Source: a phage. Taken from it: DNA of 64,000 nucleotides. Under the pieces are notes generated by a model. It saw nothing but the letters and a program-made list of their open reading frames with translations. It was not told where the DNA came from and ran no database searches. The position numbers and the translations under genes are program-made. Each line of letters opens with the position of its first letter. Positions within the stretch are counted from its first letter, which is position 1. The stretch lies in the sequence record PZ445454.1, one strand, 5' to 3'. Of this stretch, positions 3,002-46,858 are shown piece by piece.

Positions 3002-3331
3002 TTAATCTGCCAACCTTAAATTGAAATTAACACCAAATTTTTCACATACTTCCAACATATACTCAAGGGAGACGTTACCAGTGAGATGGATTATGTTGGA
3101 TACACGAGCCTGAGAGATACCACAAATTTTAGCAACTTGCTCTTGAGAAAGACCTCTTGATTTAATCTCTCTCTTAAAACGATGTGCAACAAAGTCTCTC
3201 ATTTCGTCTACATCCATTGGACAAATATAACTCTCCATTTCAGCCTCTCTATCAGCCTCCCAATCATCTTGTGGGGCATAAGGGTCAAAAACCTCATTCA
3301 TCTTTCTTCTTCCGTTTGCGTGAAGTATCAA
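3002..3331 (-). CDS. helix-turn-helix DNA-binding protein (XRE-like HTH at C-terminus)
   Basis: 109 aa; LSQEQVAKICGISQARVSNI resembles XRE/Cro-type HTH. Confidence 0.5.
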   Translation of the reverse strand: MILHANGRRKMNEVFDPYAPQDDWEADREAEMESYICPMDVDEMRDFVAHRFKREIKSRGLSQEQVAKICGISQARVSNIIHLTGNVSLEYMLEVCEKFGVNFNLRLAD

Positions 3332-7451: not shown

Positions 7452-10152
7452 CCTTGCCAGTACCAGTTACCAGTGTTTCACTCTTTAGTCCTAAGTTCTT
7501 AGAGGCTTGCCCGTAATACCAATCAGTGACAGCCTTCACCTCTGCCGTCATACTTTCTGGGCATTCCCAACTCGTCTCGTCGTGATAGGAGCACAATAAA
7601 CGAGCACCTATAGCTGGTTTGCGACCGTTCAACTTCATCAAACCTTCGTCAATCATACGACGGCAAGCAAGGTTAATTGCCTCGTTCTGAATCTGACTTT
7701 CCGAACCCATGAGCAAATAATTCAATAACTTATGTGGAGATTTACACCACAACCAAGCTCCAGCAACCTTTACAAAACCCCCTTTAGAGATTGCAGCAGT
7801 CTTACCAAACACCTCTTCAAGTGCCTTTTTAGTTGCTTTGTAGTCAGCTTCCAAGTCATCTAACAGCTTCTTAATTTTAGGTAAACGAATAAAGTAAGTC
7901 TGTTTAGTCAGTGCGCCTTCCTGAGTAGTTGCAGCTTTAATCGTCTTAGCAAACTTCTCATCCCCTGCACCGAACAGTAGTGCATAGATACCATTCTTAG
8001 CTTTCTTACGACCTTTGCTAATCTCATGAAGAAGACTCTCATCCTGAGTAGCTCGACAAGTCAAGATGTCCTGCTCATCATTCAAGCTAAAGTAAATACT
8101 GTTCAGGGTGTGTGCATCAGTCCCTGAATAGACAACGTACAGGTCATTCTCAGAGTCATAGTGAAGGTACTTATCAATCTCTGGGTTGAGATACTCATCG
8201 AAGTGTTTGCAGTAATAGCGTCCATCTTCTTGACGAGTAAACTCAATTTCTTCTTTACCTTGCGTTACCGCTTTGGTGAAATCTTTATCACCCATAAAGT
8301 TACAAAGAAGAACTAACTGGGCTGAGTTCATGTCTACAGAGACAACGTTAGTACCTTCCTCACAAATCCACACTGCCCTCATTGGTTCCCCATAGACAGC
8401 AGCACCAGACGGTACGTTTACAATACCATATTGTGTCATACGTCCAGTTGAAGTACCAAACACCATTGCACCAGCACTAAGGCGACCATCAGGACGAATC
8501 TGGTTCAACCAACCTTTTTCATCATCCTTTGAGTTCTCAATAGTTCTGCGTCTGTGCATCAAAGTGTAGTATTTCGCAATCTTCTGTCCAAGCTCACCTT
8601 CAATCGTATCATAAGATGATTCAGTAAGTTTTGGTGAAGTACGGATTAAGCAAGGCTCAAGCAAATCTGTGTACTTCTTCACAGACCAGTTATGCTCAAT
8701 GTACTGTACACCTTCATGTTCAACATAACTCAAGCCACACCGCTCAACCATTTCCTGCCACTTAGGATGTTTTGTAATCATCTTTTTATTGTCTTTGAAA
8801 CGACAAACTTTGACAGGGCGACCATCAGAGTCTTTCTTGTAGTTCCAGTCATCTGGAATCCAACCAACTGATTTCAAGTAGTCTTTAACAACTGCTACCT
8901 GAGTCATACGAGAAACTTCAAACTCAATTGGTGTATACGGTGCATCAATCAAACCTGTGTAGCGACTTGACTCAAGTTCAAAGTGGTTAACAACGTGACT
9001 GTTATAATACTTCACAGTTTTAACTGTTTTTACTGGCTTCCAATCTTTGCATTTCTTACCCATCTTTGCATTCAACTCATTGCAAATTGCACGAGCATCC
9101 TTCATTGCTACAAAACCTTCCTTGTACTCTTCACCAGTTACAGTGTTGGTTGGTGTATAGCAATTCCTTTTTTCAATGTTAAAAATCTTTGTAGTTGGCT
9201 TACCAAATGGCTTGATTTCATATGTTTGCATCTCACCATTACGTACCTGCTGACGATACTTTGTCTTAGGGTACTTGGTAATTCTTTTCAGTCCATCTGC
9301 ATGACCAAATGTTTCAACATACTCATTCCAAGCTTTTGCAAACTCTTCTCCAGTGACTTTACCTTTGGTCTTAATAGTTGGAGGAAGATGTGGTTCAACC
9401 TCTGAAGCAAGCTCATTAGTCAACTTGTCAAGTTCCTTTACATGGAACTCCATAAGCTCTTTATCAGCTTTCCAACCATTAATAGCTTGTTGACTCATCC
9501 AGAAAGATGTTTCTTTAGCTCGCATGTAGGTTTCATAAGTATCTATACCACACTTCTTAAGCTTGAGATATTCATTATCAAGTGCCCGTTTAGTTTTGGC
9601 GTTAATACGAATATCTTCTACAACACGAGTGAAGATTTCTGCATTCCACACACCCCAATGCTCAATCTCTGGTTTACGAACACCAACACGAGCACCCCAT
9701 GCAGCCAAACCATGAGCACCTTTATAACCCTTTGGAGTTGGTCTATCCATCCACTGAACACGAGACTGGATAAGAGAGTCCTGAAAGAAATTACTCCACG
9801 GTTTACACTTTGGATTATCAAAGTTCCATAAATCCGGTGCAATGTGATTGAAAACCCACCAGTCATAACCGAGGCCATTATGGATACAAAGACGTTTTGC
9901 CTTTAACGCAAACTCAATACCTTCACGTAAACCACCCTTAATGTACTTAGTGTACTTGTGACCGAGGATAGGCTCATCTGTAAAGACCCATACAGGCGGC
10001 TCTTCATCGTCAGATTTATAGTCTGCAAAGGCCATTACGTGAACTTTAGTGAACTCAAGGAGTAAACCATCAGTTTCTGTATCACCAACCAAATGTAAGT
10101 TTTTAAAATCTACGTTTTCCATTTTTACTCCCTCTAAAACCATTAACCTCAT
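7423..10152 (-). CDS. DNA polymerase, family A, with 3'-5' exonuclease domain
   Basis: 909 aa; N-terminal exonuclease motif GDTETDGL; C-terminal motif-C-like YHDE; size and context fit a phage Pol I-type polymerase. Confidence 0.9.
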   Translation of the reverse strand: MRLMVLEGVKMENVDFKNLHLVGDTETDGLLLEFTKVHVMAFADYKSDDEEPPVWVFTDEPILGHKYTKYIKGGLREGIEFALKAKRLCIHNGLGYDWWVFNHIAPDLWNFDNPKCKPWSNFFQDSLIQSRVQWMDRPTPKGYKGAHGLAAWGARVGVRKPEIEHWGVWNAEIFTRVVEDIRINAKTKRALDNEYLKLKKCGIDTYETYMRAKETSFWMSQQAINGWKADKELMEFHVKELDKLTNELASEVEPHLPPTIKTKGKVTGEEFAKAWNEYVETFGHADGLKRITKYPKTKYRQQVRNGEMQTYEIKPFGKPTTKIFNIEKRNCYTPTNTVTGEEYKEGFVAMKDARAICNELNAKMGKKCKDWKPVKTVKTVKYYNSHVVNHFELESSRYTGLIDAPYTPIEFEVSRMTQVAVVKDYLKSVGWIPDDWNYKKDSDGRPVKVCRFKDNKKMITKHPKWQEMVERCGLSYVEHEGVQYIEHNWSVKKYTDLLEPCLIRTSPKLTESSYDTIEGELGQKIAKYYTLMHRRRTIENSKDDEKGWLNQIRPDGRLSAGAMVFGTSTGRMTQYGIVNVPSGAAVYGEPMRAVWICEEGTNVVSVDMNSAQLVLLCNFMGDKDFTKAVTQGKEEIEFTRQEDGRYYCKHFDEYLNPEIDKYLHYDSENDLYVVYSGTDAHTLNSIYFSLNDEQDILTCRATQDESLLHEISKGRKKAKNGIYALLFGAGDEKFAKTIKAATTQEGALTKQTYFIRLPKIKKLLDDLEADYKATKKALEEVFGKTAAISKGGFVKVAGAWLWCKSPHKLLNYLLMGSESQIQNEAINLACRRMIDEGLMKLNGRKPAIGARLLCSYHDETSWECPESMTAEVKAVTDWYYGQASKNLGLKSETLVTGTGKVGKSWLEVH

Positions 10153-10182
10153 ACATTACTGCAAAAAATTATAAAAAGCAAG

Positions 10183-10211
10183 TTGACAATGTACTTGACA
10201 AGGTGTTAATC
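10183..10211 (+). promoter_or_regulatory. candidate sigma70-type promoter with tandem TTGACA boxes in a divergent intergenic region
   Basis: TTGACAATGTACTTGACAAGGTG element; a near-identical element recurs at 56395-56417. Confidence 0.4.
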
Positions 10212-10379
10212 TTTGCGAAGTGGGTTTTTACTTAAAAGGTTACTTAACAGTTTAACTATACAGATACTTTAAAACTCTTAAAAGATTATTTAATAGCTTT
10301 TAAAAAGCTTTAAAGTATAACGTATAGAATACGTTAAGATAAAAGATTAAAACTTAATAGTTACTTAAAAGAGGCTTAC

Positions 10380-10802
10380 ATGCAGAAAATGTTTGTTCAC
10401 CCAGACATAGCTGACTTTGTTAGAGCTTTGCAGAAGTTGGAAGAACTTGACATTGCTGCTCAACGGGAATATGCTCACCATCACAGGAGAATGGTTGATA
10501 TACAACATGAGATAGAGTTATCAGAAGACTATGAAGATGACTTAAAATGCTCTGTGTTTGAGCATATGAAAGATGTTGCTACGGCGAGACGTAAAGCTAA
10601 AGACACAGTTGCTTTACTAGATTCTCTTAAAAAGAGGTTGCAAAGTGGTACAGACCTGTGTAATCTAGCATCACTGATTAACGATGTTGAAACTTCTTGG
10701 GATAGGCACTATTATCCGCGTTCTGAAAAGACACTTGACTTTTCTTCATCAGAAAACTTAAAATGTTCTAGAAAGAAACTTAACCAACTGAGAGAGAAAT
10801 AA
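10380..10802 (+). CDS. hypothetical protein
   Basis: 140 aa ORF, first gene of the plus-strand block. Confidence 0.5.
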   Translation: MQKMFVHPDIADFVRALQKLEELDIAAQREYAHHHRRMVDIQHEIELSEDYEDDLKCSVFEHMKDVATARRKAKDTVALLDSLKKRLQSGTDLCNLASLINDVETSWDRHYYPRSEKTLDFSSSENLKCSRKKLNQLREK

Positions 10803-14596: not shown

Positions 14597-14848
14597 TAGC
14601 TATAAAAGAGAGGGGTTCATACCCTTCTTTGAAGAAAAAAGTTTAAATAAATTTCAGGAAGAGTGTTTGACAAAGGTTGATAGGTTCTATAGAATGCTCT
14701 ACATGAAATGTGATGGTGGTGTCGAAGTAGAGAAAAAGTCCTATCACAATACTGTCACAGTCATCATCACTATGCCTGAACATAATATTGGTTGGCTGTT
14801 TGTAATAAAAGAAAATGTGTTTGAATATCAAGTATATCGGAGAATATC

Positions 14849-14998
14849 ATGAAACACTCTAAAGCATTTGAAAAAGTTTTTGGGGATTCCTTAAAAGCCA
14901 CTGCTGGAAAACCAGCAAAATACTATGAAGAGAAGCGTGTAAGAACTGGAAAAACTGCACGTAAAGCAACTTCTAAAGATAAGCACAACTTCCAGTAA
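14849..14998 (+). CDS. small basic hypothetical protein (49 aa, below ORF-track cutoff)
   Basis: ATG preceded by GGAG; own translation MKHSKAFEKVFGDSLKATAGKPAKYYEEKRVRTGKTARKATSKDKHNFQ. Confidence 0.3.
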   Translation: MKHSKAFEKVFGDSLKATAGKPAKYYEEKRVRTGKTARKATSKDKHNFQ

Positions 14999-15070
14999 TT
15001 AATGTTTGACAATAGAGTATCAACAAATTAGAATTGGTACTCTTCATAAATTGAGATAGAGGTTTAAATA

Positions 15071-15928
15071 ATGTCTAAAGTTGTTAAAATGAAAGCTCCG
15101 GTAGAGAAGTACAACGGTACTGAACGTCAAACTCTGCGTTACCTTCTGAAAGATGTCTGGTTTTATTACCTGAACACTTCACCACGTCCGGGAAAAGGTA
15201 AGTCCATTGATAAGAAATTCCCAGGCAAAGACTGTAACTACAGCGTTTCAATTCTGGCAGAAGATGGTAACAAGCTGTTTAAAGAGTTTACTAAGTCTAA
15301 GAAAAACCCAGAAGGTTGGGATAAAGTTACTACTGAAGCAGTTGATGCAGATGACTTCGAAGAGAAGTTTGGTTGCAAACCACCATTTGAAGCAGATACT
15401 TACTACATCTTGAAAGTAAGTCGTGCAGCAGCTTATAAAGATGGTGCTGTGTGGACAGCTAAACAGTCATTCCCTGTAATGCTGATTGAAGAAGTAAATG
15501 GTAAGCGTGTAGCTGTTAAACAGCCGATGAAGAAAATCAAAGCTCAAGCATCTGACAAACATGAAGATGATAAGAACTATGATGTAATTCACCCAGATAT
15601 TGCAGTTGGTAACGGTTCTTTTGGTAGTGTGATTCTCTCTACTCACTTCTACACTTTTGAGAATAACGTTCTGACAAAACCTATTCAGGAACAGTTTATC
15701 ATTGATACTCTTGTACCTTACACTGGGGGTAACGGTGCTAACGGTGAACCTGAACTGGATGAAGATGAACTGGCTATGCTTGGTCTTGATGGCGTTGAAG
15801 ATAACGGTGAAATCACTGAAGAAGATGCAACAGACCACAAACCTTCGAATGACTCTGATGATGGTGATGACGAAGACTTGCCGGACCCAGATGACGAAGG
15901 AGAGGAAGACTTCGATACAGAAGACTAA
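15071..15928 (+). CDS. single-stranded DNA-binding protein-like (acidic C-terminal tail)
   Basis: 285 aa; strongly acidic C-terminus DDEDLPDPDDEGEEDFDTED; sits between primase-helicase and flap endonuclease. Confidence 0.5.
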   Translation: MSKVVKMKAPVEKYNGTERQTLRYLLKDVWFYYLNTSPRPGKGKSIDKKFPGKDCNYSVSILAEDGNKLFKEFTKSKKNPEGWDKVTTEAVDADDFEEKFGCKPPFEADTYYILKVSRAAAYKDGAVWTAKQSFPVMLIEEVNGKRVAVKQPMKKIKAQASDKHEDDKNYDVIHPDIAVGNGSFGSVILSTHFYTFENNVLTKPIQEQFIIDTLVPYTGGNGANGEPELDEDELAMLGLDGVEDNGEITEEDATDHKPSNDSDDGDDEDLPDPDDEGEEDFDTED

Positions 15929-15946
15929 TCTCTAAAAGTTACTTTA

Positions 15947-15976
15947 AAGCCCTGTACTTAGTATGGGGCTTTTTCA
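15947..15976 (+). terminator. intrinsic terminator-like hairpin
   Basis: AAGCCC...GGGCTT followed by TTTTT after the SSB-like gene. Confidence 0.45.
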
Positions 15977-15990
15977 TATGGAGAGCCATA

Positions 15991-17031
15991 ATGGAGAAGT
16001 ACACATTAACAAAGCTTCCCGATTCAGTTACACATGTCTTTATTGACTCTGACAGCATTGCCTATAAAGGTGCTTGTGTAGTTGAGAAAGCAAAGTATAA
16101 ATACGTTAATAAACTCACAGCAGAAGAATCTGAACCATTTGATAATGCGAAAGATGCTGCAAGATGGTTAGCAGACCAGAGAATCCTTGTGGAAGAGCTT
16201 GGCCTGACATTTGATGAAGATGAATGGGAAAGACAAACTTGGAAAGAAGCTAAGAGTGAAAAAGAAGCTATCATGGCTACTCAACAGGTTCTTCAGGAAT
16301 GGCTTAAGGTTGTTGGTAAAGAAAGAACTTGGGTGGGTTATTTAACAGAGAAAGGTGTGCATAAACATAAAGACATTAAAGGTCTTGAGCACCAATATCA
16401 AGGTAACCGTAAAGATGCTGTCACACCAACACACTTAGTCGCTTGTCGTGAATACCTTTTATCCAGACCAGAGTTCAAGCTCTTAAAGGGAGGCTTCGAA
16501 GCCGATTCAATCGTAATTGCTAAAGCTGAAAAGATGGGTAAGAAGGCTGCTCTTATGAGTATTGACAAAGACCTTCGACAAGCTGAAGGAACTTATTGTA
16601 TTGATATGACTTATGAAAAATCACCACTAATCTTTATTGCTGATAATAATGTTGGTGATATCTGGGATTGTCCTATCAAATCAAAACCAAAAGCTGCAAA
16701 AACAGTTGGTGTAGGTTTTAAATTCTTGTGCTATCAGGCTGTTGCTGGAGATAATGCAGACAACTACTTTGGCCTTAAAGGTGCTGGTAAAGTAGCTGTG
16801 ATGAATGCTTTAGATGGCAAAGAGACATACAAAGAGTGTCTTGATGCTATCTATGAACTCTATGCTAAAAAAGACTCTTACACCTATGTATCATGGGATG
16901 GACAGACAGTTACAAAGACACCGTTAGAGTTAATGGAACAGCATTTCTGGATAGCTTATCAAGAAAGAAATCCAAAAGATAATTTCTCTTTTAAGAAATA
17001 TAATTGGGAGCCACGTATGAATGAAGATTAA
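15991..17031 (+). CDS. 5'-3' exonuclease / flap endonuclease (RNase H-like)
   Basis: 346 aa; N-terminal VFIDSDSIAY and H3TH motif AGDNADNYFGLKGAGKVAV. Confidence 0.75.
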   Translation: MEKYTLTKLPDSVTHVFIDSDSIAYKGACVVEKAKYKYVNKLTAEESEPFDNAKDAARWLADQRILVEELGLTFDEDEWERQTWKEAKSEKEAIMATQQVLQEWLKVVGKERTWVGYLTEKGVHKHKDIKGLEHQYQGNRKDAVTPTHLVACREYLLSRPEFKLLKGGFEADSIVIAKAEKMGKKAALMSIDKDLRQAEGTYCIDMTYEKSPLIFIADNNVGDIWDCPIKSKPKAAKTVGVGFKFLCYQAVAGDNADNYFGLKGAGKVAVMNALDGKETYKECLDAIYELYAKKDSYTYVSWDGQTVTKTPLELMEQHFWIAYQERNPKDNFSFKKYNWEPRMNED

Positions 17032-17518
17032 AGGATTTGGCAATTGCCCCACCTATGGTCATTGGGTATCTTTATGTGGGGAAGTTGACCCCACTAAACA
17101 TTTTGGTTTTGTCTATTTAGTACACTGTAAGAAAACCGGACAATATTATATCGGAAAGAAACAGCTTAATAGTGTGACTAAAAGAAAAGTTGCTGGCAAG
17201 ACTCGGAAGAAGGTAGTCACTAAGGAGAGTGATTGGATGACTTATGAAACTTCTTCTGAGTATATTAAAAAAGATATTGAGAGCTTTGGAAAAGAATTTT
17301 TTGACTTTTACATTATTCAGACCTACTACACGAAAGGTGGCCTAGTTTATGGTGAAGCAAACCTCCAACATAAATTCGATGTAATGACAAAAAGGATTGA
17401 CTCTAAGCTCAGACTCTTCTACAATGCCAATATTGCAGCAATTAAGTTTATCACTAAAGAAACTTATGAAGATGCTGAAAAAAGAATCCATAAGGTAATG
17501 AAAGCAAACTGCGCTTGA
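17021..17518 (+). CDS. hypothetical protein, possible GIY-YIG nuclease fold
   Basis: 165 aa; FVYLVHCKKTGQYYIGKK resembles a GIY-YIG motif; weak. Confidence 0.35.
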   Translation: MKIKGFGNCPTYGHWVSLCGEVDPTKHFGFVYLVHCKKTGQYYIGKKQLNSVTKRKVAGKTRKKVVTKESDWMTYETSSEYIKKDIESFGKEFFDFYIIQTYYTKGGLVYGEANLQHKFDVMTKRIDSKLRLFYNANIAAIKFITKETYEDAEKRIHKVMKANCA

Positions 17519-17524
17519 TAACTA

Positions 17525-17788
17525 TTGAGAGAGAATAAAATGTTTAATAAAAGCAAAGCTGTGAGTCATGTAGCAAAAGTTGACAGTAAGATTGAAGAAC
17601 TTGAGCGCATTCTTGCAAATGCTAGAGAGTCGATAATTAAAGAAGTTGAAGCTGTTGAATCTCAAATGCAGCACCTAATGCTTAAACGTCAAGAGCTACG
17701 TGAACATCTGGAATATATTGAAACACGAGAGCTAAAGGTTAACAGATATTTTAAGGAGTCCGAATGTTTAACTCAAGAGAATCAGTAA
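17525..17788 (+). CDS. hypothetical coiled-coil protein
   Basis: 87 aa. Confidence 0.45.
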   Translation: MRENKMFNKSKAVSHVAKVDSKIEELERILANARESIIKEVEAVESQMQHLMLKRQELREHLEYIETRELKVNRYFKESECLTQENQ

Positions 17789-18519
17789 AAAACTGGAATC
17801 TTCGTTGCGGAAAAACTCAAAAACAACCATACAGTAATGAGTATTGGGAGTCTTTGAAATCTCAATCTCTGTGTATGCTTGAAGAAGCAAAAGAGCTTGT
17901 AAAAGCAATTGAAGAGAAAGACCCCATTGAGACACTGGATGCTCAGGCAGATTTGCAATATGTTCTTGACGGTTTGATTTATCTGTCACAACATGACCAT
18001 AACGGTGCTATGAAAGCTGTTTGCCATAATAATGACCTGAAGTACACAGATGACTATGAAGAAGCTTTAAAACGTCTTGCAGATGTTGAGAAGCGTACTG
18101 GTCAAGAGTGTATCATCAGAATGTCAGTGGTTGATGGTAAAGAGTGGTATGCGATTGTCCGTGCAGCCGATGGGAAGATTATGAAGCAATCAAATCTCCC
18201 TAAAGTACAGCTTGGTGAATACATTGTAGAGCTTGAAAGCCAAGAACTTTTTGTGGTAGTATCTGAGACATGCGTTATCTGCAAAGGTATTGTAGGTAGC
18301 TTAAAGGATTTGGGTGTAGATGGTTTTGTAGAAGTTAATCCAATTACCTCTAAAGCAGATAAAGATTTCTGTAAAGAGAATGGACTATGGATTGCAGATA
18401 TTGTCTACTATGATGGTGAGCAGTTCCATGTAACCTCATACCCGAAACTGAATTATGATGCTAATAACCTGAAGTGCTGGTTAAAAGGGGTTGGTTATAA
18501 TGGATTCACAGAACATTAA
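17764..18519 (+). CDS. hypothetical protein
   Basis: 251 aa ORF. Confidence 0.5.
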   Translation: MFNSRESVKNWNLRCGKTQKQPYSNEYWESLKSQSLCMLEEAKELVKAIEEKDPIETLDAQADLQYVLDGLIYLSQHDHNGAMKAVCHNNDLKYTDDYEEALKRLADVEKRTGQECIIRMSVVDGKEWYAIVRAADGKIMKQSNLPKVQLGEYIVELESQELFVVVSETCVICKGIVGSLKDLGVDGFVEVNPITSKADKDFCKENGLWIADIVYYDGEQFHVTSYPKLNYDANNLKCWLKGVGYNGFTEH

Positions 18520-21435: not shown

Positions 21436-21748
21436 TTTTAACAACTATGAGGGTCGTAAAAGACCCTCTAAAAATAGCTTTGGAGAGACCATGAAAGATT
21501 TAATAGAAAAACATGAGCGACCAATATACTTGCTCTACAAACCCCGCAAAACATTGTACTATGTGAGCAGCACAGGTATCATGATAAAGCAGAATGATGA
21601 CTTATGGGTCACTGGAGCCTCTTACATCTCTACAGCAGATGGTAAAATCTACGCAAGACCTTATGAGATGTTTAACAAAGAAAATTGGGAAGTTTTAGAC
21701 AGAAAACAAGCCTTAGAAATGATAAAGAAAGGAGAAATCACGCTATGA
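21407..21748 (+). CDS. hypothetical protein
   Basis: 113 aa ORF between nrdA and nrdB. Confidence 0.4.
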   Translation: MLIARVVVFSFNNYEGRKRPSKNSFGETMKDLIEKHERPIYLLYKPRKTLYYVSSTGIMIKQNDDLWVTGASYISTADGKIYARPYEMFNKENWEVLDRKQALEMIKKGEITL

Positions 21749-43262: not shown

Positions 43263-43588
43263 TGACTGGTATCACTGCAATCATTGCCATTTTCGCGCTA
43301 TATAAGGCATATAAAGCCTATAATCTAGCAAATAAGGCAATCACACAGCAGGTTAGCAATAACCTTGTAGAAAGCTTTCTAGGGCGCCTCAGTGATGAGC
43401 AAATAAAGCGGCTAGAGATGAGCTTCAGATATAAAGCGAAAACCTATCAGATAAGTGACATCTTCAAAGATGATTTTCAGTTAGTCGATGATTATAATTC
43501 ACTGATAAATGCTTTAAATATCAGTGATTTGAAAGACTATTACGCTGTAATTGTTCAAGAATTGAGCAAACGAAAACAAAATGTTTGA
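43256..43588 (+). CDS. hypothetical protein with N-terminal TM helix
   Basis: 110 aa; translationally coupled to the previous gene (no cassette upstream). Confidence 0.5.
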   Translation: MLMTGITAIIAIFALYKAYKAYNLANKAITQQVSNNLVESFLGRLSDEQIKRLEMSFRYKAKTYQISDIFKDDFQLVDDYNSLINALNISDLKDYYAVIVQELSKRKQNV

Positions 43589-43677
43589 CACTGGTTTTCA
43601 GATAGATTAAATTACACATCAACGGGGTGGGAATGACCTTCCCCACTAAGTAAAGTCCTAAACTGGAGATTCTGAAA
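43585..43677 (+). repeat. conserved intergenic regulatory cassette, type B (includes promoter TTGACA-N17-TAAATT)
   Basis: TTGACACTGGTTTTCAGATAGATTAAATT, hairpin GGGAATGACCTTCCC, leader CTAAACTGGAGATTCTGAAA-ATG. Confidence 0.7.
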
Positions 43678-44440: not shown

Positions 44441-44540
44441 AAATTTTGTTGACACTGGTTTTCAGATAGATTAAATTACACATCAACGGGGCGGGAATGA
44501 CCTTCCCCACTAAATAAAGTCCTAAACTGGAGATTCAAAA
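44441..44540 (+). repeat. conserved intergenic regulatory cassette, type B (promoter TTGACA-N17-TAAATT)
   Basis: Near-identical to 43585-43677. Confidence 0.7.
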
Positions 44541-46104: not shown

Positions 46105-46239
46105 TCAATAACTTACAAAAAACTTTTAAAAAAGTGTTGACAATACCCCTTGACATTGGTAACTTTGTTCGAGGGGGTTTATCTAAAAGGGATTAACTTA
46201 AAAGATTCTTTATAGATAAACTTAAAAAATTGCTTGCAA

Positions 46240-46327
46240 TCAGATATCAAAACAAGTAAATTACTAATCAACGGTGAGGGAATGAACTTCCTCACTAAAT
46301 AAAGTCCTTAAACTAGGAGATTCAAAA
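46240..46327 (+). repeat. conserved intergenic regulatory cassette, type B variant
   Basis: CAACGGTGAGGGAATGAACTTCCTCACTAAATAAAGTCCTTAAACTAGGAGATTCAAAA-ATG. Confidence 0.65.
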
Positions 46328-46858
46328 ATGAACAAGTTCAAAGCTATCAACTACATCCGTTCAAGTAGTGTCATGTCAAAGCCTGTTAAAGATACCTATG
46401 AATTTCGTTGCAATGGTGTACACTTTGCAACCATTACCAAATCAGAAAACGGGGCTTATTACGTTCATCGTCGTAATGTTGCAACAGTTGTAGTCTCTCA
46501 CTTTATGCAAGCTGTAGCAGAATTATTACCGTTATTCTTAGGGATTTACTTGGATGAGTGTAAAAACGTTCACAACCACGTTAAAAGCCTTTTAAACAGT
46601 TATAAAATGGCTTATGAACGTTCTATCAAGTCCTTAAACAAGTTCTATAAAGCCCCTGTAAATACTGTTTCAATGGCCTACGCTGCAAATGGTGAAAGAG
46701 TAAACCTATCCGATGTGGAAGATATCGAGCTTTACAACCATCGGCCTAACGGTTACTCTCAGACTCTAGGTGAAGGTTTAACTTTCAATATCAAGAACTT
46801 AGAAAAAACTTTAAAAGATATTGAAAAAGATATTGACGAGACAATCAAAAATCTGTAA
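46328..46858 (+). CDS. hypothetical protein (cassette gene 11)
   Basis: 176 aa. Confidence 0.6.
   Translation: MNKFKAINYIRSSSVMSKPVKDTYEFRCNGVHFATITKSENGAYYVHRRNVATVVVSHFMQAVAELLPLFLGIYLDECKNVHNHVKSLLNSYKMAYERSIKSLNKFYKAPVNTVSMAYAANGERVNLSDVEDIELYNHRPNGYSQTLGEGLTFNIKNLEKTLKDIEKDIDETIKNL

What the first reader, a model, noticed from the sequence alone, without database searches (positions are those of the whole stretch)
10183..10211. Conserved tandem-TTGACA element at both divergent strand-switch regions
Nearly the same 24 nt element (TTGACAAWGTACTTGACAAGGTGT) occurs at 10183 and 56395, each in an intergenic region where transcription diverges. A related double-TTGACA arrangement occurs at 46137-46155. 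This suggests a shared promoter class or regulator-binding site controlling early expression in both directions.
Basis: seen in the sequence. Interest (0 to 1): 0.4.

Follow-up and report, generated by a model that had tools for sequence, protein, structure and literature searches.

The report
Phage promoters with doubled -35 box
Three rightward promoters of this Felix O1-like phage carry a second, strictly conserved copy of the TTGACA "-35" box inside the promoter spacer; they are ordinary host-polymerase promoters in most respects, but the conserved extra box is unexplained and seems undescribed.

Summary
TTGACAAWGTACTTGACAAGGTGT occurs at 10183 and 56395 (none expected by chance), and a 13-nt-spaced version occurs at 46137. 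The window is a Felixounavirus. A complete relative has exactly these three perfect tandem pairs.

Each site reads as a sigma70-type promoter pointing rightward: A-tract, TTGACA (hexamer 1), a 17-18 nt spacer, then TAnnnT, with TGn at two sites. Hexamer 2 lies inside the spacer, 4-6 nt upstream of the -10, and has no -10 of its own at two of the three sites.

Across about 30 relatives, including Suspvirus- and Mooglevirus-like genomes, both hexamers are invariant (0 of 36 columns vary). By contrast, 14 of 19 columns between the hexamers vary. Only T-12, A-11 and T-7 of the -10 are fixed.

The same architecture is conserved at one site in Kolesnikvirus. It is also conserved upstream of the late-sigma gene in a large family of uncultured T4-like phages.

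So "shared promoter class" is supported. "Both directions" is not, because the leftward promoters are separate. A phage-specific regulator site is possible but disfavoured. The role of hexamer 2 is unresolved; my best guess is a second docking site for sigma region 4. Part of this is already annotated as promoters in GenBank. Interest is moderate.

The parts
10173..10182 (+). Site A upstream A-tract, AAAAAGCAAG. It is UP-element-like for the rightward promoter. Its complement TTGCTT (10181->10176) is the candidate -35 of the leftward DNA-polymerase promoter.
   Evidence: Invariant in 22 unique related sequences. The AAAAAG-N3-TTGACA pattern is enriched in the window, with 12 matches against 1.45 expected.
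10183..10188 (+). Site A hexamer 1, TTGACA. This is the functional -35 of the rightward promoter.
   Evidence: An 18-nt spacer separates it from TAATCT. Invariant in all relatives. Annotated as a promoter in GenBank record MZ726791.
10195..10200 (+). Site A hexamer 2, TTGACA. It lies inside the spacer, 6 nt upstream of the -10.
   Evidence: Invariant in all relatives, while 4 of the 6 bases between the hexamers vary. No -10-like hexamer lies 15-19 nt downstream of it (sequence).
10204..10212 (+). Site A extended -10: TGT + TAATCT.
   Evidence: Relatives have TGTTAGTCT or TGGTAGTCT. TG, T-12, A-11 and T-7 are fixed, while the n and third positions vary.
10218..10379 (+). Site A predicted start (A10218/10219) and the roughly 160-nt AT-rich leader carrying ACTTAAAAG-type repeats.
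   Evidence: The start is inferred from the -10 position. The leader folds with MFE -31.2 and z -2.6. A 12-nt lag autocorrelation gives z 4.7. The hairpin at 10318-10336 shows a compensatory change in Moogle-like loci.
10153..10158 (-). Site A candidate leftward -10, TAATGT on the minus strand. It lies 17 nt from TTGCTT and would drive the DNA polymerase operon.
   Evidence: Relatives have TAATGT or TAGGGT, so the TAnnGT positions are kept while the flanks diverge. This is an inference with no start-site data.
56385..56394 (+). Site B upstream A-tract, AAAAAAGTTG.
   Evidence: AAAA is invariant in 15 unique sequences.
56395..56400 (+). Site B hexamer 1, TTGACA (-35). Its complement TTGTCA also serves as the candidate -35 of the leftward promoter.
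   Evidence: A 17-nt spacer separates it from TAGGCT. Invariant in relatives. It is the start of P41 in the Felix O1 paper.
56407..56412 (+). Site B hexamer 2, TTGACA. It lies in the spacer, 5 nt upstream of the -10.
   Evidence: Invariant, while all 6 bases between the hexamers vary. GenBank record MZ726791 uses it as a -35 paired with AATACT at N15.
56418..56423 (+). Site B -10, TAGGCT.
   Evidence: Relatives have TAGGCT, TAGCCT, TAAGTT or TAGTGT. T-12, A-11 and T-7 are invariant and the middle is variable.
56429..56544 (+). Site B predicted start and the roughly 115-nt leader. The leader is almost invariant across the clade and is built of 12-nt tandem pairs.
   Evidence: Lag-12 autocorrelation gives z 11.6. 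The leader folds with MFE -28.4 and z -3.0.
56372..56380 (-). Site B candidate leftward extended -10, TGT + AATAGT on the minus strand.
   Evidence: Relatives keep the form TGnAATnnT (TGCAATAGT, TGCAATACT, TGTAATTTT). This is an inference.
46128..46136 (+). Site C upstream A-tract, AAAAAAGTG.
46137..46142 (+). Site C hexamer 1, TTGACA (-35).
   Evidence: A 17-nt spacer separates it from TAACTT. Invariant in 17 unique sequences.
46150..46155 (+). Site C hexamer 2, TTGACA. The period is 13, and it lies 4 nt upstream of the -10.
   Evidence: Invariant, while 4 of the 7 bases between the hexamers vary.
46157..46165 (+). Site C extended -10: TGG + TAACTT.
   Evidence: Relatives have TAACTT or TAATGT, and TGG is kept.
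46172..46327 (+). Site C predicted start and the roughly 155-nt structured leader.
   Evidence: The leader folds with MFE -36.3 and z -4.9. A 5' hairpin here is annotated as a terminator in MZ726791.

Best explanation
The tandem-TTGACA elements are the cores of three rightward promoters read by the host sigma70 RNA polymerase.

Hexamer 1 is the working -35 box. It is preceded by an A-tract and followed, after 17-18 bp, by a TAnnnT -10 box, with a TGn extension at sites A and C. These promoters head three transcription units:
- Site A: the long unit that starts at the gene at 10380.
- Site B: the unit at 56545 that holds a DUF5681 protein, a Ro-like protein and the tRNA cluster, and runs on toward the structural genes.
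- Site C: a short unit at 46328.

Each transcript would begin with a structured, AT-rich leader of 115-160 nt.

Hexamer 2 is a second consensus -35 box kept by selection inside the spacer, at about -23 to -18. It is not the -35 of a second promoter. My best guess is that it is a second docking site for sigma region 4. This would raise capture of polymerase by these promoters, or change how polymerase leaves them, rather than serving as an operator for a phage protein.

What is shown: the sequence architecture, its uniqueness in the genome and its conservation pattern. What is inferred: polymerase use, start sites and the role of hexamer 2.
For: Anatomy. Hexamer 1 is followed by TAATCT after 18 nt at site A, TAGGCT after 17 nt at site B, and TAACTT after 17 nt at site C. 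TGn is present at A and C.

Conservation:
- 0 of 36 hexamer columns vary across 22, 15 and 17 unique related sequences at sites A, B and C.
- 14 of 19 inter-hexamer columns vary.
- In the -10, only T-12, A-11 and T-7 are fixed. Those are the bases sigma70 reads (established knowledge).

Uniqueness. Exactly three perfect pairs exist in a complete 87.6-kb relative.

Promoter family. The window holds many single-hexamer promoters of the same style, A-tract-TTGACA-17/18-TAnnnT. GenBank annotators already call sites A, B and C promoters.

Hexamer 2 has no -10 of its own at A or C.

Pointers to the polymerase rather than a phage-specific factor:
- Kolesnikvirus phages (phiEa104, PMBT37) keep one such site, AAAAAGCCC-TTGACA-TTCTAC-TTGACA-GGGGC-TAAAGT, although tblastn finds no homologue of the window's HTH gene in phiEa104.
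- In uncultured T4-like phages sampled through their late-sigma protein, 66 of 66 unique upstream regions have hexamer 1 and a 17-nt spacer. 60 of 66 have an exact hexamer 2, and the other six keep TTG or TTA.
- The position of hexamer 2 shifts by +/-1 relative to both hexamer 1 and the -10 while the total spacer stays at 17.
Against: - No transcription start site, footprint or expression data exist for any copy. No such data were found in the literature searched.
- The -10 boxes are weak in their central positions. The simple consensus scan did not call sites A or B on the + strand.
- A -35 box in the spacer would be expected to form unproductive complexes, so a positive role is speculative.
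- I know of no described precedent for a docking role at -23 to -18.
- A control scan with the second hexamer at N3-4 found 44 loci, many of them real-looking promoters. Extra hexamers in spacers therefore occur at other offsets. The excess at N6-7 is carried by two or three families, not by phage promoters in general.
- The window encodes an XRE-type regulator (3002-3331, minus strand) that could bind here.
Confidence: 0.55

Rival explanations
1. The two hexamers form an operator for a phage-encoded regulator. The obvious candidate is the XRE/HTH_3 protein at 3002-3331 (minus strand). Bound over the -35 box and spacer, it would switch these three promoters off, or tune them, as infection proceeds.
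For: - The direct repeat overlaps the -35 and spacer, which is the classic place for an operator.
- Only three promoters in the genome carry it, which is what a small regulon would look like.
- The phage encodes an HTH_3 regulator: Pfam E 6e-10, phrog_1373 'transcriptional regulator'.
- TTGACAA is nearly self-complementary, so TTGnCAA-N5-TTGnCAA could also be read as an inverted repeat (sequence).
- Kolesnikvirus has no detected homologue of the HTH gene and has single hexamers at its two divergent regions.
Against: - The conserved units coincide exactly with the sigma70 -35 hexamer. The seventh base and the flanks vary.
- The centre base is always A, never T, so the repeat is direct rather than palindromic.
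- The spacing is 12, 12 and 13 within one genome, and 11 or 12 in the T4-like family.
- Kolesnikvirus still keeps one tandem site although no HTH homologue was detected.
- A T4-like family keeps the same architecture.
- Felix O1 ORFs just downstream of sites A and B peak at 25 min, not at 5 min.
Confidence: 0.2
2. There are two overlapping promoters 12 bp apart (P1 and P2). Each hexamer would act as the -35 box of its own -10 box, giving two start sites, as at gal P1/P2.
For: At site B, hexamer 2 is followed after 15 nt by AATACT, and after 16 nt by AACACT in distant relatives. GenBank record MZ726791 annotates exactly that as the promoter.
Against: - At sites A and C, nothing resembling TAnnnT lies 15-19 nt after hexamer 2. 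The candidates are CGAAGT, GAAGTG and AAGTGG at A, and GAGGGG at C.
- The same is true in Kolesnikvirus (AGGGTT) and the T4-like family (TGTACC, TGTAGC).
Confidence: 0.08
3. These are origin or primer promoters. A strong promoter followed by an AT-rich unwinding region would prime replication through an R-loop, as at T4 ori(uvsY) and ori(34). The tandem hexamers would be part of that specialised promoter.
For: - The leaders are 23-30% G+C and are more conserved than the flanking genes.
- The leaders are built of short periodic repeats.
- Sites A and B sit at strand-switch points where GC skew changes sign.
- In the T4-like family, the element points antisense into a block of same-strand genes that includes a helicase and uvsY. 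That is odd for an mRNA promoter.
- The analogy with T4 origins comes from established knowledge, not from a test here.
Against: - GC skew simply follows the direction of transcription in this window.
- The leaders end in good ribosome-binding sites and genes.
- No initiator-binding repeats are shared with the 1.6-kb repeat region.
- Nothing in this idea explains why a second -35 box would be needed.
Confidence: 0.1
4. Hexamer 2 has no function. It would be a remnant of 12-nt tandem duplications, copied between sites by recombination.
For: - Sites A and B are full of 12-nt tandem pairs of unrelated sequence, which suggests a duplication process.
- The two 24-mers are nearly identical in this genome.
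- Extra TTGACA hexamers occur in promoter spacers elsewhere at roughly background numbers.
Against: - Both hexamers are invariant at three loci across lineages whose proteins differ by up to 20%, while the bases between them have turned over completely.
- Independent conservation is seen in Kolesnikvirus and in 60 of 66 members of the T4-like family.
Confidence: 0.05

Closest known systems
T4 early promoters, described as 'über' UP/-35/TGn/-10 promoters, together with T7 A1 (Hinton review, PMC2988021)
   Same: - They are read by unmodified host sigma70 polymerase.
- They combine an upstream A/T-rich element, a near-consensus -35, TGn and a -10.
- They sit at the head of phage transcription units.
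- The review notes extra regions of consensus of unknown meaning.
   Different: - A second full TTGACA in the spacer is not part of the T4 early consensus, as far as I know.
- The -10 boxes here are weak in the middle (TAATCT, TAGGCT, TAACTT).
- No Alt-type enzyme is known in this phage group.
Lambda PR' late promoter with its second TTGACT hexamer (from memory of Nickels, Roberts and Hochschild 2002; not checked here)
   Same: One promoter region carries two -35-type hexamers. The second is bound by sigma region 4 in a specialised complex rather than serving as a -35 for initiation.
   Different: - In lambda, the second hexamer lies downstream of the -10, next to a -10-like pause element, and works with the Q antiterminator.
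- Here it lies upstream of the -10.
- There is no consistent -10-like element in register with it.
- No Q-like protein has been identified.
Direct-repeat activator sites that overlap the -35 region: lambda CII (TTGC-N6-TTGC) and the PhoB pho box (from established knowledge)
   Same: They are short direct repeats starting with TTG or TGTCA, about one helical turn apart, lying over the -35 region.
   Different: - Those promoters have a poor -35 and need the activator. Here hexamer 1 is a perfect -35 at the perfect distance.
- The period here is 12-13, not 10-11.
- The repeat unit here is the sigma70 consensus itself.
PeSL promoter-terminator cassettes of T4-type phages (PMC2839356, PMC4122927)
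   Same: They are conserved sigma70-type early promoter modules shared between phage genomes. Some promoters in this window are likewise fused to hairpins (43585, 44449, 58431).
   Different: - PeSLs are many-copy stem-loop-plus-promoter cassettes in variable regions.
- The tandem-hexamer promoters are three fixed, syntenic sites with no upstream stem-loop.
- I did not read the PeSL consensus in detail, because that look-up failed on a term error.

Membership tests
sigma70 (-35/-10) promoter | A -35 hexamer close to TTGACA. | tested here: met
   Hexamer 1 is a perfect TTGACA at 10183, 56395 and 46137. It is invariant in relatives.
sigma70 (-35/-10) promoter | A -10 hexamer with T-12, A-11 and T-7, lying 16-18 bp downstream of the -35. 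| tested here: met
   TAATCT at 18 nt, TAGGCT at 17 nt and TAACTT at 17 nt. The three key positions are invariant while the centre varies. The overall match to TATAAT is weak, and the consensus scanner missed sites A and B.
sigma70 (-35/-10) promoter | Transcription starts 6-8 nt downstream of the -10 and depends on sigma70 holoenzyme. | not testable with these tools
   No start-site or in vitro data were found for any Felixounavirus.
'Über' UP/-35/TGn/-10 phage early promoter (T4 early type) | An extended -10 TGn at -15 to -13. | tested here: inconclusive
   Present and conserved at A (TGT/TGG) and C (TGG). At B, the TG sits one base too close (GTG-TAGGCT).
'Über' UP/-35/TGn/-10 phage early promoter (T4 early type) | An A/T-rich UP element upstream of the -35. 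| tested here: inconclusive
   A conserved AAAAAG lies 3-4 nt upstream of hexamer 1 at all sites. At site A the same bases are also the candidate -35 of the leftward promoter, so the reason for their conservation is ambiguous.
Overlapping dual promoters (P1/P2) | Each -35 has its own -10 at 16-18 bp. | tested here: not met
   No TAnnnT lies 15-19 nt after hexamer 2 at A or C, in Kolesnikvirus or in the T4-like family. Only site B has AATACT, at 15 nt.
Operator for a dimeric or tandem DNA-binding regulator | Fixed spacing of half-sites, and co-occurrence with the cognate regulator gene. | tested here: not met
   Spacing is 12, 12 and 13 in one genome, and 11 or 12 in the T4-like family. The tandem site is present in phiEa104, where tblastn finds no homologue of the window's HTH protein (best E 6.2). 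Actual binding could not be tested.
Lambda PR'-type Q-loading promoter | A -35-like hexamer next to a -10-like pause element in the initially transcribed region, plus a Q-type antiterminator. | tested here: not met
   Hexamer 2 is upstream of the -10. No consistent -10-like hexamer lies 16-18 nt after it. The Q-like protein was not searched for.
T4-type origin promoter (promoter plus downstream unwinding element) | A promoter followed by an AT-rich, easily unwound region that forms a primer R-loop. | tested here: inconclusive
   The leaders are 23-30% G+C and highly conserved. GC skew switches at A and B, but that tracks transcription direction. R-loop formation and initiation are not testable here.

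The most novel reading that the evidence does not exclude
A conserved second sigma-region-4 binding hexamer in the spacer defines a distinct "dual -35" class of phage promoter. It would be kept by selection in unrelated phage groups (Ounavirinae and aquatic T4-like phages). It would give polymerase a property that a normal promoter lacks, such as faster capture on the single infecting genome, altered escape, retention of sigma in early elongation, or priming of replication.
Probability: 0.3. Interest if true: 0.65.

Novelty: new variant of a known kind. Interest (0 to 1): 0.45.

Why it matters
The Felix O1 genome paper stated that no promoter could be found in the polymerase-side divergent region, and that the temporal control of transcription is unknown (PMC3185647). 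These three promoters are the best candidates for where host polymerase first engages the genome.

If the second -35 box really alters polymerase behaviour, it would add an element to the known sigma70 promoter grammar. It would also give a compact, portable design for strong or specially regulated promoters. Felix O1-type phages are widely used for Salmonella and E. coli typing and biocontrol, so knowing their entry promoters also has practical use.

If hexamer 2 proves inert or merely a repressor site, the finding reduces to routine promoter annotation.

Tried and rejected
**Second promoter from hexamer 2.** Rejected. I looked 15-19 nt downstream of hexamer 2 at all sites and in all families, and only site B has a weak candidate.

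**Leftward use of the hexamers.**
- At site A, the complement hexamers sit 10 and 22 nt from the only TATAAT, and that TATAAT is not conserved. I replaced this idea with TTGCTT-17-TAATGT.
- At site B, the complement of hexamer 1 fits a leftward extended -10 promoter. So the element may be shared there, but not at A.

**T4-late-type promoter.** TATAAATA at 56424-56431 is not conserved in Suspvirus- or Mooglevirus-like relatives.

**Alternative sigma factors and host regulators.** I compared the element from memory with sigma32, sigmaE and sigma28 consensus sequences, and with the sites of PhoB, OmpR, ArcA, PmrA, IHF, FNR and CRP. None fits in both motif and spacing. None of these comparisons was computed.

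**Sigma-dependent pause model.** This needs hexamer 2 paired with a -10-like element at +1 to +6. No such element exists at A or C.

**Known RNA families.** Rfam found only tRNAs in the window, and nothing at the T4-like locus.

**General excess of tandem hexamers in phage promoters.** Not demonstrated.
- The N6-7 scan hit more than 120 loci, but these are mostly two families.
- An N3-4 control gave 44 loci.

**Literature.** Searches for Felixounavirus start sites or transcriptomes, and for "tandem/two/double TTGACA", found nothing.

**Cultured T4-like phages carrying the element.** None found. Only Felix-like records matched.

Full report
**Observation.** Allowing three mismatches, they are the only matches in the window, and none occurred in 100 dinucleotide-preserving shuffles. 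The third site, TTGACAATACCCCTTGACA at 46137-46155, is real but has a 13-nt rather than a 12-nt hexamer period.

**What the window is.** It is a Felix O1-like myovirus (Felixounavirus), 96-97.6% identical over 3 kb to SBA-1781, ULIM9 and Felix O1. The coding strands are as follows:
- Minus from 408 up to the DNA polymerase. The real polymerase start is most likely ATG 10122, which is preceded by GAGGGAG.
- Plus from 10380 to 47170.
- A 1.6-kb stretch without ORFs.
- Minus from 48833 to a small ORF that, by my reading of the sequence, starts near 56293.
- Plus from 56545 onward, through a tRNA cluster at 58577-63553.

Sites A (10183) and B (56395) are therefore in the two divergent intergenic regions, each about 250 nt long. 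Site C (46137) lies between two plus-strand genes.

**Anatomy.** At each site an A-tract (AAAAAG) lies 3-4 nt upstream of hexamer 1. The layouts are:
- Site A: TTGACA-N18-TAATCT, with TGT immediately upstream of the -10.
- Site B: TTGACA-N17-TAGGCT.
- Site C: TTGACA-N17-TAACTT, with TGG upstream.

Hexamer 2 sits inside the spacer and ends 6, 5 and 4 nt before the -10 at A, B and C. Nothing like TAnnnT lies 15-19 nt downstream of hexamer 2 at A or C. At B there is AATACT at 15 nt.

The window contains many other promoter-like sites of the same style with one hexamer. Examples are 4325(-), 15006, 35430, 43585, 44449, 53095(-), 56929, 58431, 58521 and 59983. AAAAAG-N3-TTGACA is enriched, with 12 matches against 1.45 expected. 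The simple consensus scanner did not call A or B on the + strand, because their -10 boxes match TATAAT at only three positions.

**Evolutionary signature.** I fetched the homologous regions from about 30 IMG/VR genomes through neighbouring proteins, not through the motif. The set includes genomes whose proteins are only 75-92% identical, which are Suspvirus- and Mooglevirus-like. Across 22, 15 and 17 unique sequences at sites A, B and C:
- None of the 36 hexamer columns varies.
- 14 of the 19 columns between the hexamers vary. At site B all six vary: AAGTAC, AAGGAC, TTCCTC, AGCCTC, AGGGGA and AATGAC.
- In the -10 boxes only the first, second and sixth positions are fixed: TAATCT/TAGTCT at A; TAGGCT/TAGCCT/TAAGTT/TAGTGT at B; TAACTT/TAATGT at C.
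- The TG of TGn is fixed while n varies.

T-12, A-11 and T-7 are the -10 bases that sigma70 reads most strictly (established knowledge). This is the footprint of selection expected for a sigma70 promoter that uses hexamer 1. It also shows that hexamer 2 is under selection as a hexamer, not as part of a 24-nt block.

A complete relative (ASO1A, 87.6 kb) has exactly three perfect pairs, at the same three sites.

**Leftward promoters.** The element is not bidirectional.
- At site A, the invariant AAAAAGCAAG upstream of hexamer 1 reads TTGCTT on the minus strand. Seventeen nt further on that strand lies TAATCT's leftward counterpart, TAATGT (TAGGGT in distant relatives). This is a plausible polymerase-operon promoter set back-to-back with the rightward one. 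The perfect TATAAT on the minus strand at 10173-10168 is not conserved.
- At site B, a conserved TGnAATnnT lies on the minus strand at 56380-56372. Eighteen nt from it is TTGTCA, the complement of hexamer 1.

**More distant relatives.** The Kolesnikvirus phages phiEa104 and PMBT37 share about 60% DNA polymerase identity and the same four-block genome layout. They have single-hexamer promoters in both divergent regions. They do conserve one tandem promoter, AAAAAGCCC-TTGACA-TTCTAC-TTGACA-GGGGC-TAAAGT, at the end of the long rightward block, pointing into an unannotated 1.4 kb. tblastn finds no homologue of the window's HTH regulator in phiEa104 (best E 6.2).

**An unrelated family.** Most hits are not Felix-like. 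They belong to a large family of uncultured T4-like phages, identified as follows:
- UvsY: Pfam E 2e-24.
- Major head protein: phrog_138.
- Late sigma factor: phrog_234, E 8e-63.

In this family the element lies just upstream of the late-sigma gene and points away from it. To avoid ascertainment bias, I re-sampled the family through the sigma protein. In 66 unique upstream regions:
- Hexamer 1 is TTGACA in 66.
- The spacer to a TATAGT/TAAAGT/TACAGT -10 is 17 nt in 66.
- Hexamer 2 is exactly TTGACA in 60. The others are TTGCCA, TTGACT, TTGCCG, TTGCCT and TTAACA.
- Where the inter-hexamer gap is 5 instead of 6, the gap to the -10 is 6 instead of 5, so the total spacer is unchanged.

Some Felix-like phages share the identical 27-mer with this family.

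**A control tempers the generality.** The same pattern with the second hexamer at N3-4 gives 44 loci in the whole collection. Many of them also look like real promoters, with hexamer 1 followed after 16-18 nt by TATAAT. Extra hexamers in spacers are therefore not confined to one offset. The N6-7 excess is carried by a few conserved families. A general enrichment among phage promoters is not shown.

**Mechanism.**
- The promoter reading is well supported, at about 0.85 confidence: host sigma70 polymerase, with hexamer 1 as the -35, transcribing rightward.
- The role of hexamer 2 is open. The conserved unit is exactly the sigma70 -35 consensus. Its register can slip by one base relative to both neighbours. 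It is kept in phages that infect different hosts and have no detected (Kolesnikvirus) or unexamined (T4-like fragments) copy of the Felix HTH regulator.
- The most economical reader of hexamer 2 is therefore sigma region 4 itself. I propose a second docking site that increases capture of polymerase, or alters escape or sigma retention. This step is inference only; I put it at about 0.3-0.35 within the overall statement.
- The operator model, with the XRE regulator at 3002-3331, remains possible at about 0.2. Felix O1 RT-PCR shows ORFs 41, 42 and 96-99 peaking at 25 min rather than being shut off early. That does not favour an early shut-off operator.
- A dual-promoter model fails at two of the three sites.
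- An origin-promoter model is suggested by three things: the AT-rich, highly conserved, periodically repeated leaders; the skew switch; and the antisense orientation in the T4-like family. It is untested, and it does not explain the second hexamer.

**What is known.**
- The Felix O1 genome paper lists P41 (TTGACA-N15-TATAGG at 21515). I mapped it to hexamer 1 of site B.
- The same paper states that no other promoter-like sequence was found in the 40-41 or 96-97 intergenic regions, and that temporal control is unknown.
- Later GenBank records (ASO1A, AYO145A) annotate promoters at A, B and C by pattern matching. They use hexamer 1 at A and hexamer 2 at B.
- I found no paper that mentions the duplicated hexamer or its conservation.
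- The closest described class is the T4 "über" UP/-35/TGn/-10 early promoter.

**Verdict.** The feature is real and conserved. It is a set of host-type phage promoters, which is already partly annotated and therefore ordinary. What is not ordinary is the unexplained and apparently undescribed conserved second -35 box. I score it as a new variant of a known kind, of moderate interest.

Noticed in passing
window 47171-48780: This is a 1.6-kb stretch with no ORF of 44 aa or more, at the convergent junction of the two long blocks. It is packed with short repeats (CTTGTTAG, CTGTTAAG, TTGTTAAGA, CTTAAAAG, CTATAGAG, CTTATAAG). It shows a very strong 11-nt periodicity (lag-11 z = 24.6). It is unannotated in ASO1A (14733-16270) and in phiEa104 (16471-17901), where the tandem promoter points into it. 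It could be an origin, a protein-binding array or a region near the genome ends.
   Followed up: partly
window 10219-10379, 56430-56544, 46172-46327: Long AT-rich leaders lie downstream of the three tandem promoters. They carry CTnnnnAG octamers (CTTAAAAG is 13-fold enriched in non-coding DNA, CTTGTTAG 26-fold). They are built of 12-nt tandem pairs of unrelated sequence (lag-12 z = 11.6 at site B). They are predicted to fold (z -2.6, -3.0, -4.9), with the 5' end pairing to the Shine-Dalgarno region at site A. The site B leader is nearly invariant even where the flanking proteins differ by 20%.
   Followed up: partly
window 10318-10336: The hairpin TAACGTAT-AGA-ATACGTTA in the site A leader changes to ATGTAT..ATACAT in Mooglevirus-like loci. 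This is a compensatory double change that keeps the stem.
   Followed up: no
window 56997-58412: This 471-aa protein has DUF2828 and DUF7788 domains. Homologues in mycobacteriophage records are named Ro-like RNA-binding protein. It is encoded immediately upstream of the 23-gene tRNA cluster (58577-63553). A Y-RNA-like partner might lie nearby, but Rfam found none at gathering threshold.
   Followed up: partly
window 43585-43650 and 44449-44515: A 39-bp repeat consists of a good promoter (TTGACA-17-TAAATT) followed at once by a GC-rich hairpin (CAACGGGGTGGGAATGACCTTCCCGCCCCGTTG). ASO1A annotates it as a promoter plus a terminator. It could make very short RNAs or 5'-hairpin-protected mRNAs. The promoter at 58431 likewise lies inside the hairpin listed as terminators t42/t43 in the Felix O1 paper.
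   Followed up: no
window 3002-3331 (minus strand): An XRE/HTH_3 regulator (Pfam E 6e-10; phrog_1373 'transcriptional regulator') lies in the leftward replication block. tblastn finds no homologue in phiEa104. Its target is unknown.
   Followed up: partly
L146 2871-2971, and 66 related loci (L225-L304): In uncultured T4-like phages, the tandem-hexamer promoter between the late-sigma gene and a 117-aa ORF points antisense into a run of same-strand genes (helicase, uvsY, major head protein). In one subgroup it is followed by an AT palindrome plus a T-run (ATTAATATATTAATTTTTTT), so it may make a roughly 40-nt RNA or an anti-late transcript.
   Followed up: partly
L308, L311, L315, L324, L327, L329, L331: Another IMG/VR family conserves a promoter with two TTGACA hexamers only 4 nt apart: AAAAAGATG-TTGACA-GGGG-TTGACA-N8-TATAAT/TAAAAT. 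This hints that doubled -35 boxes at other offsets may also be maintained.
   Followed up: no
window 10122-10152: The long ORF call for the DNA polymerase starts at 10152. However, the ATG at 10122 has a strong GAGGGAG ribosome-binding site 7 nt upstream. The Felix O1 record carries two alternative starts. The true start is probably 10122.
   Followed up: no
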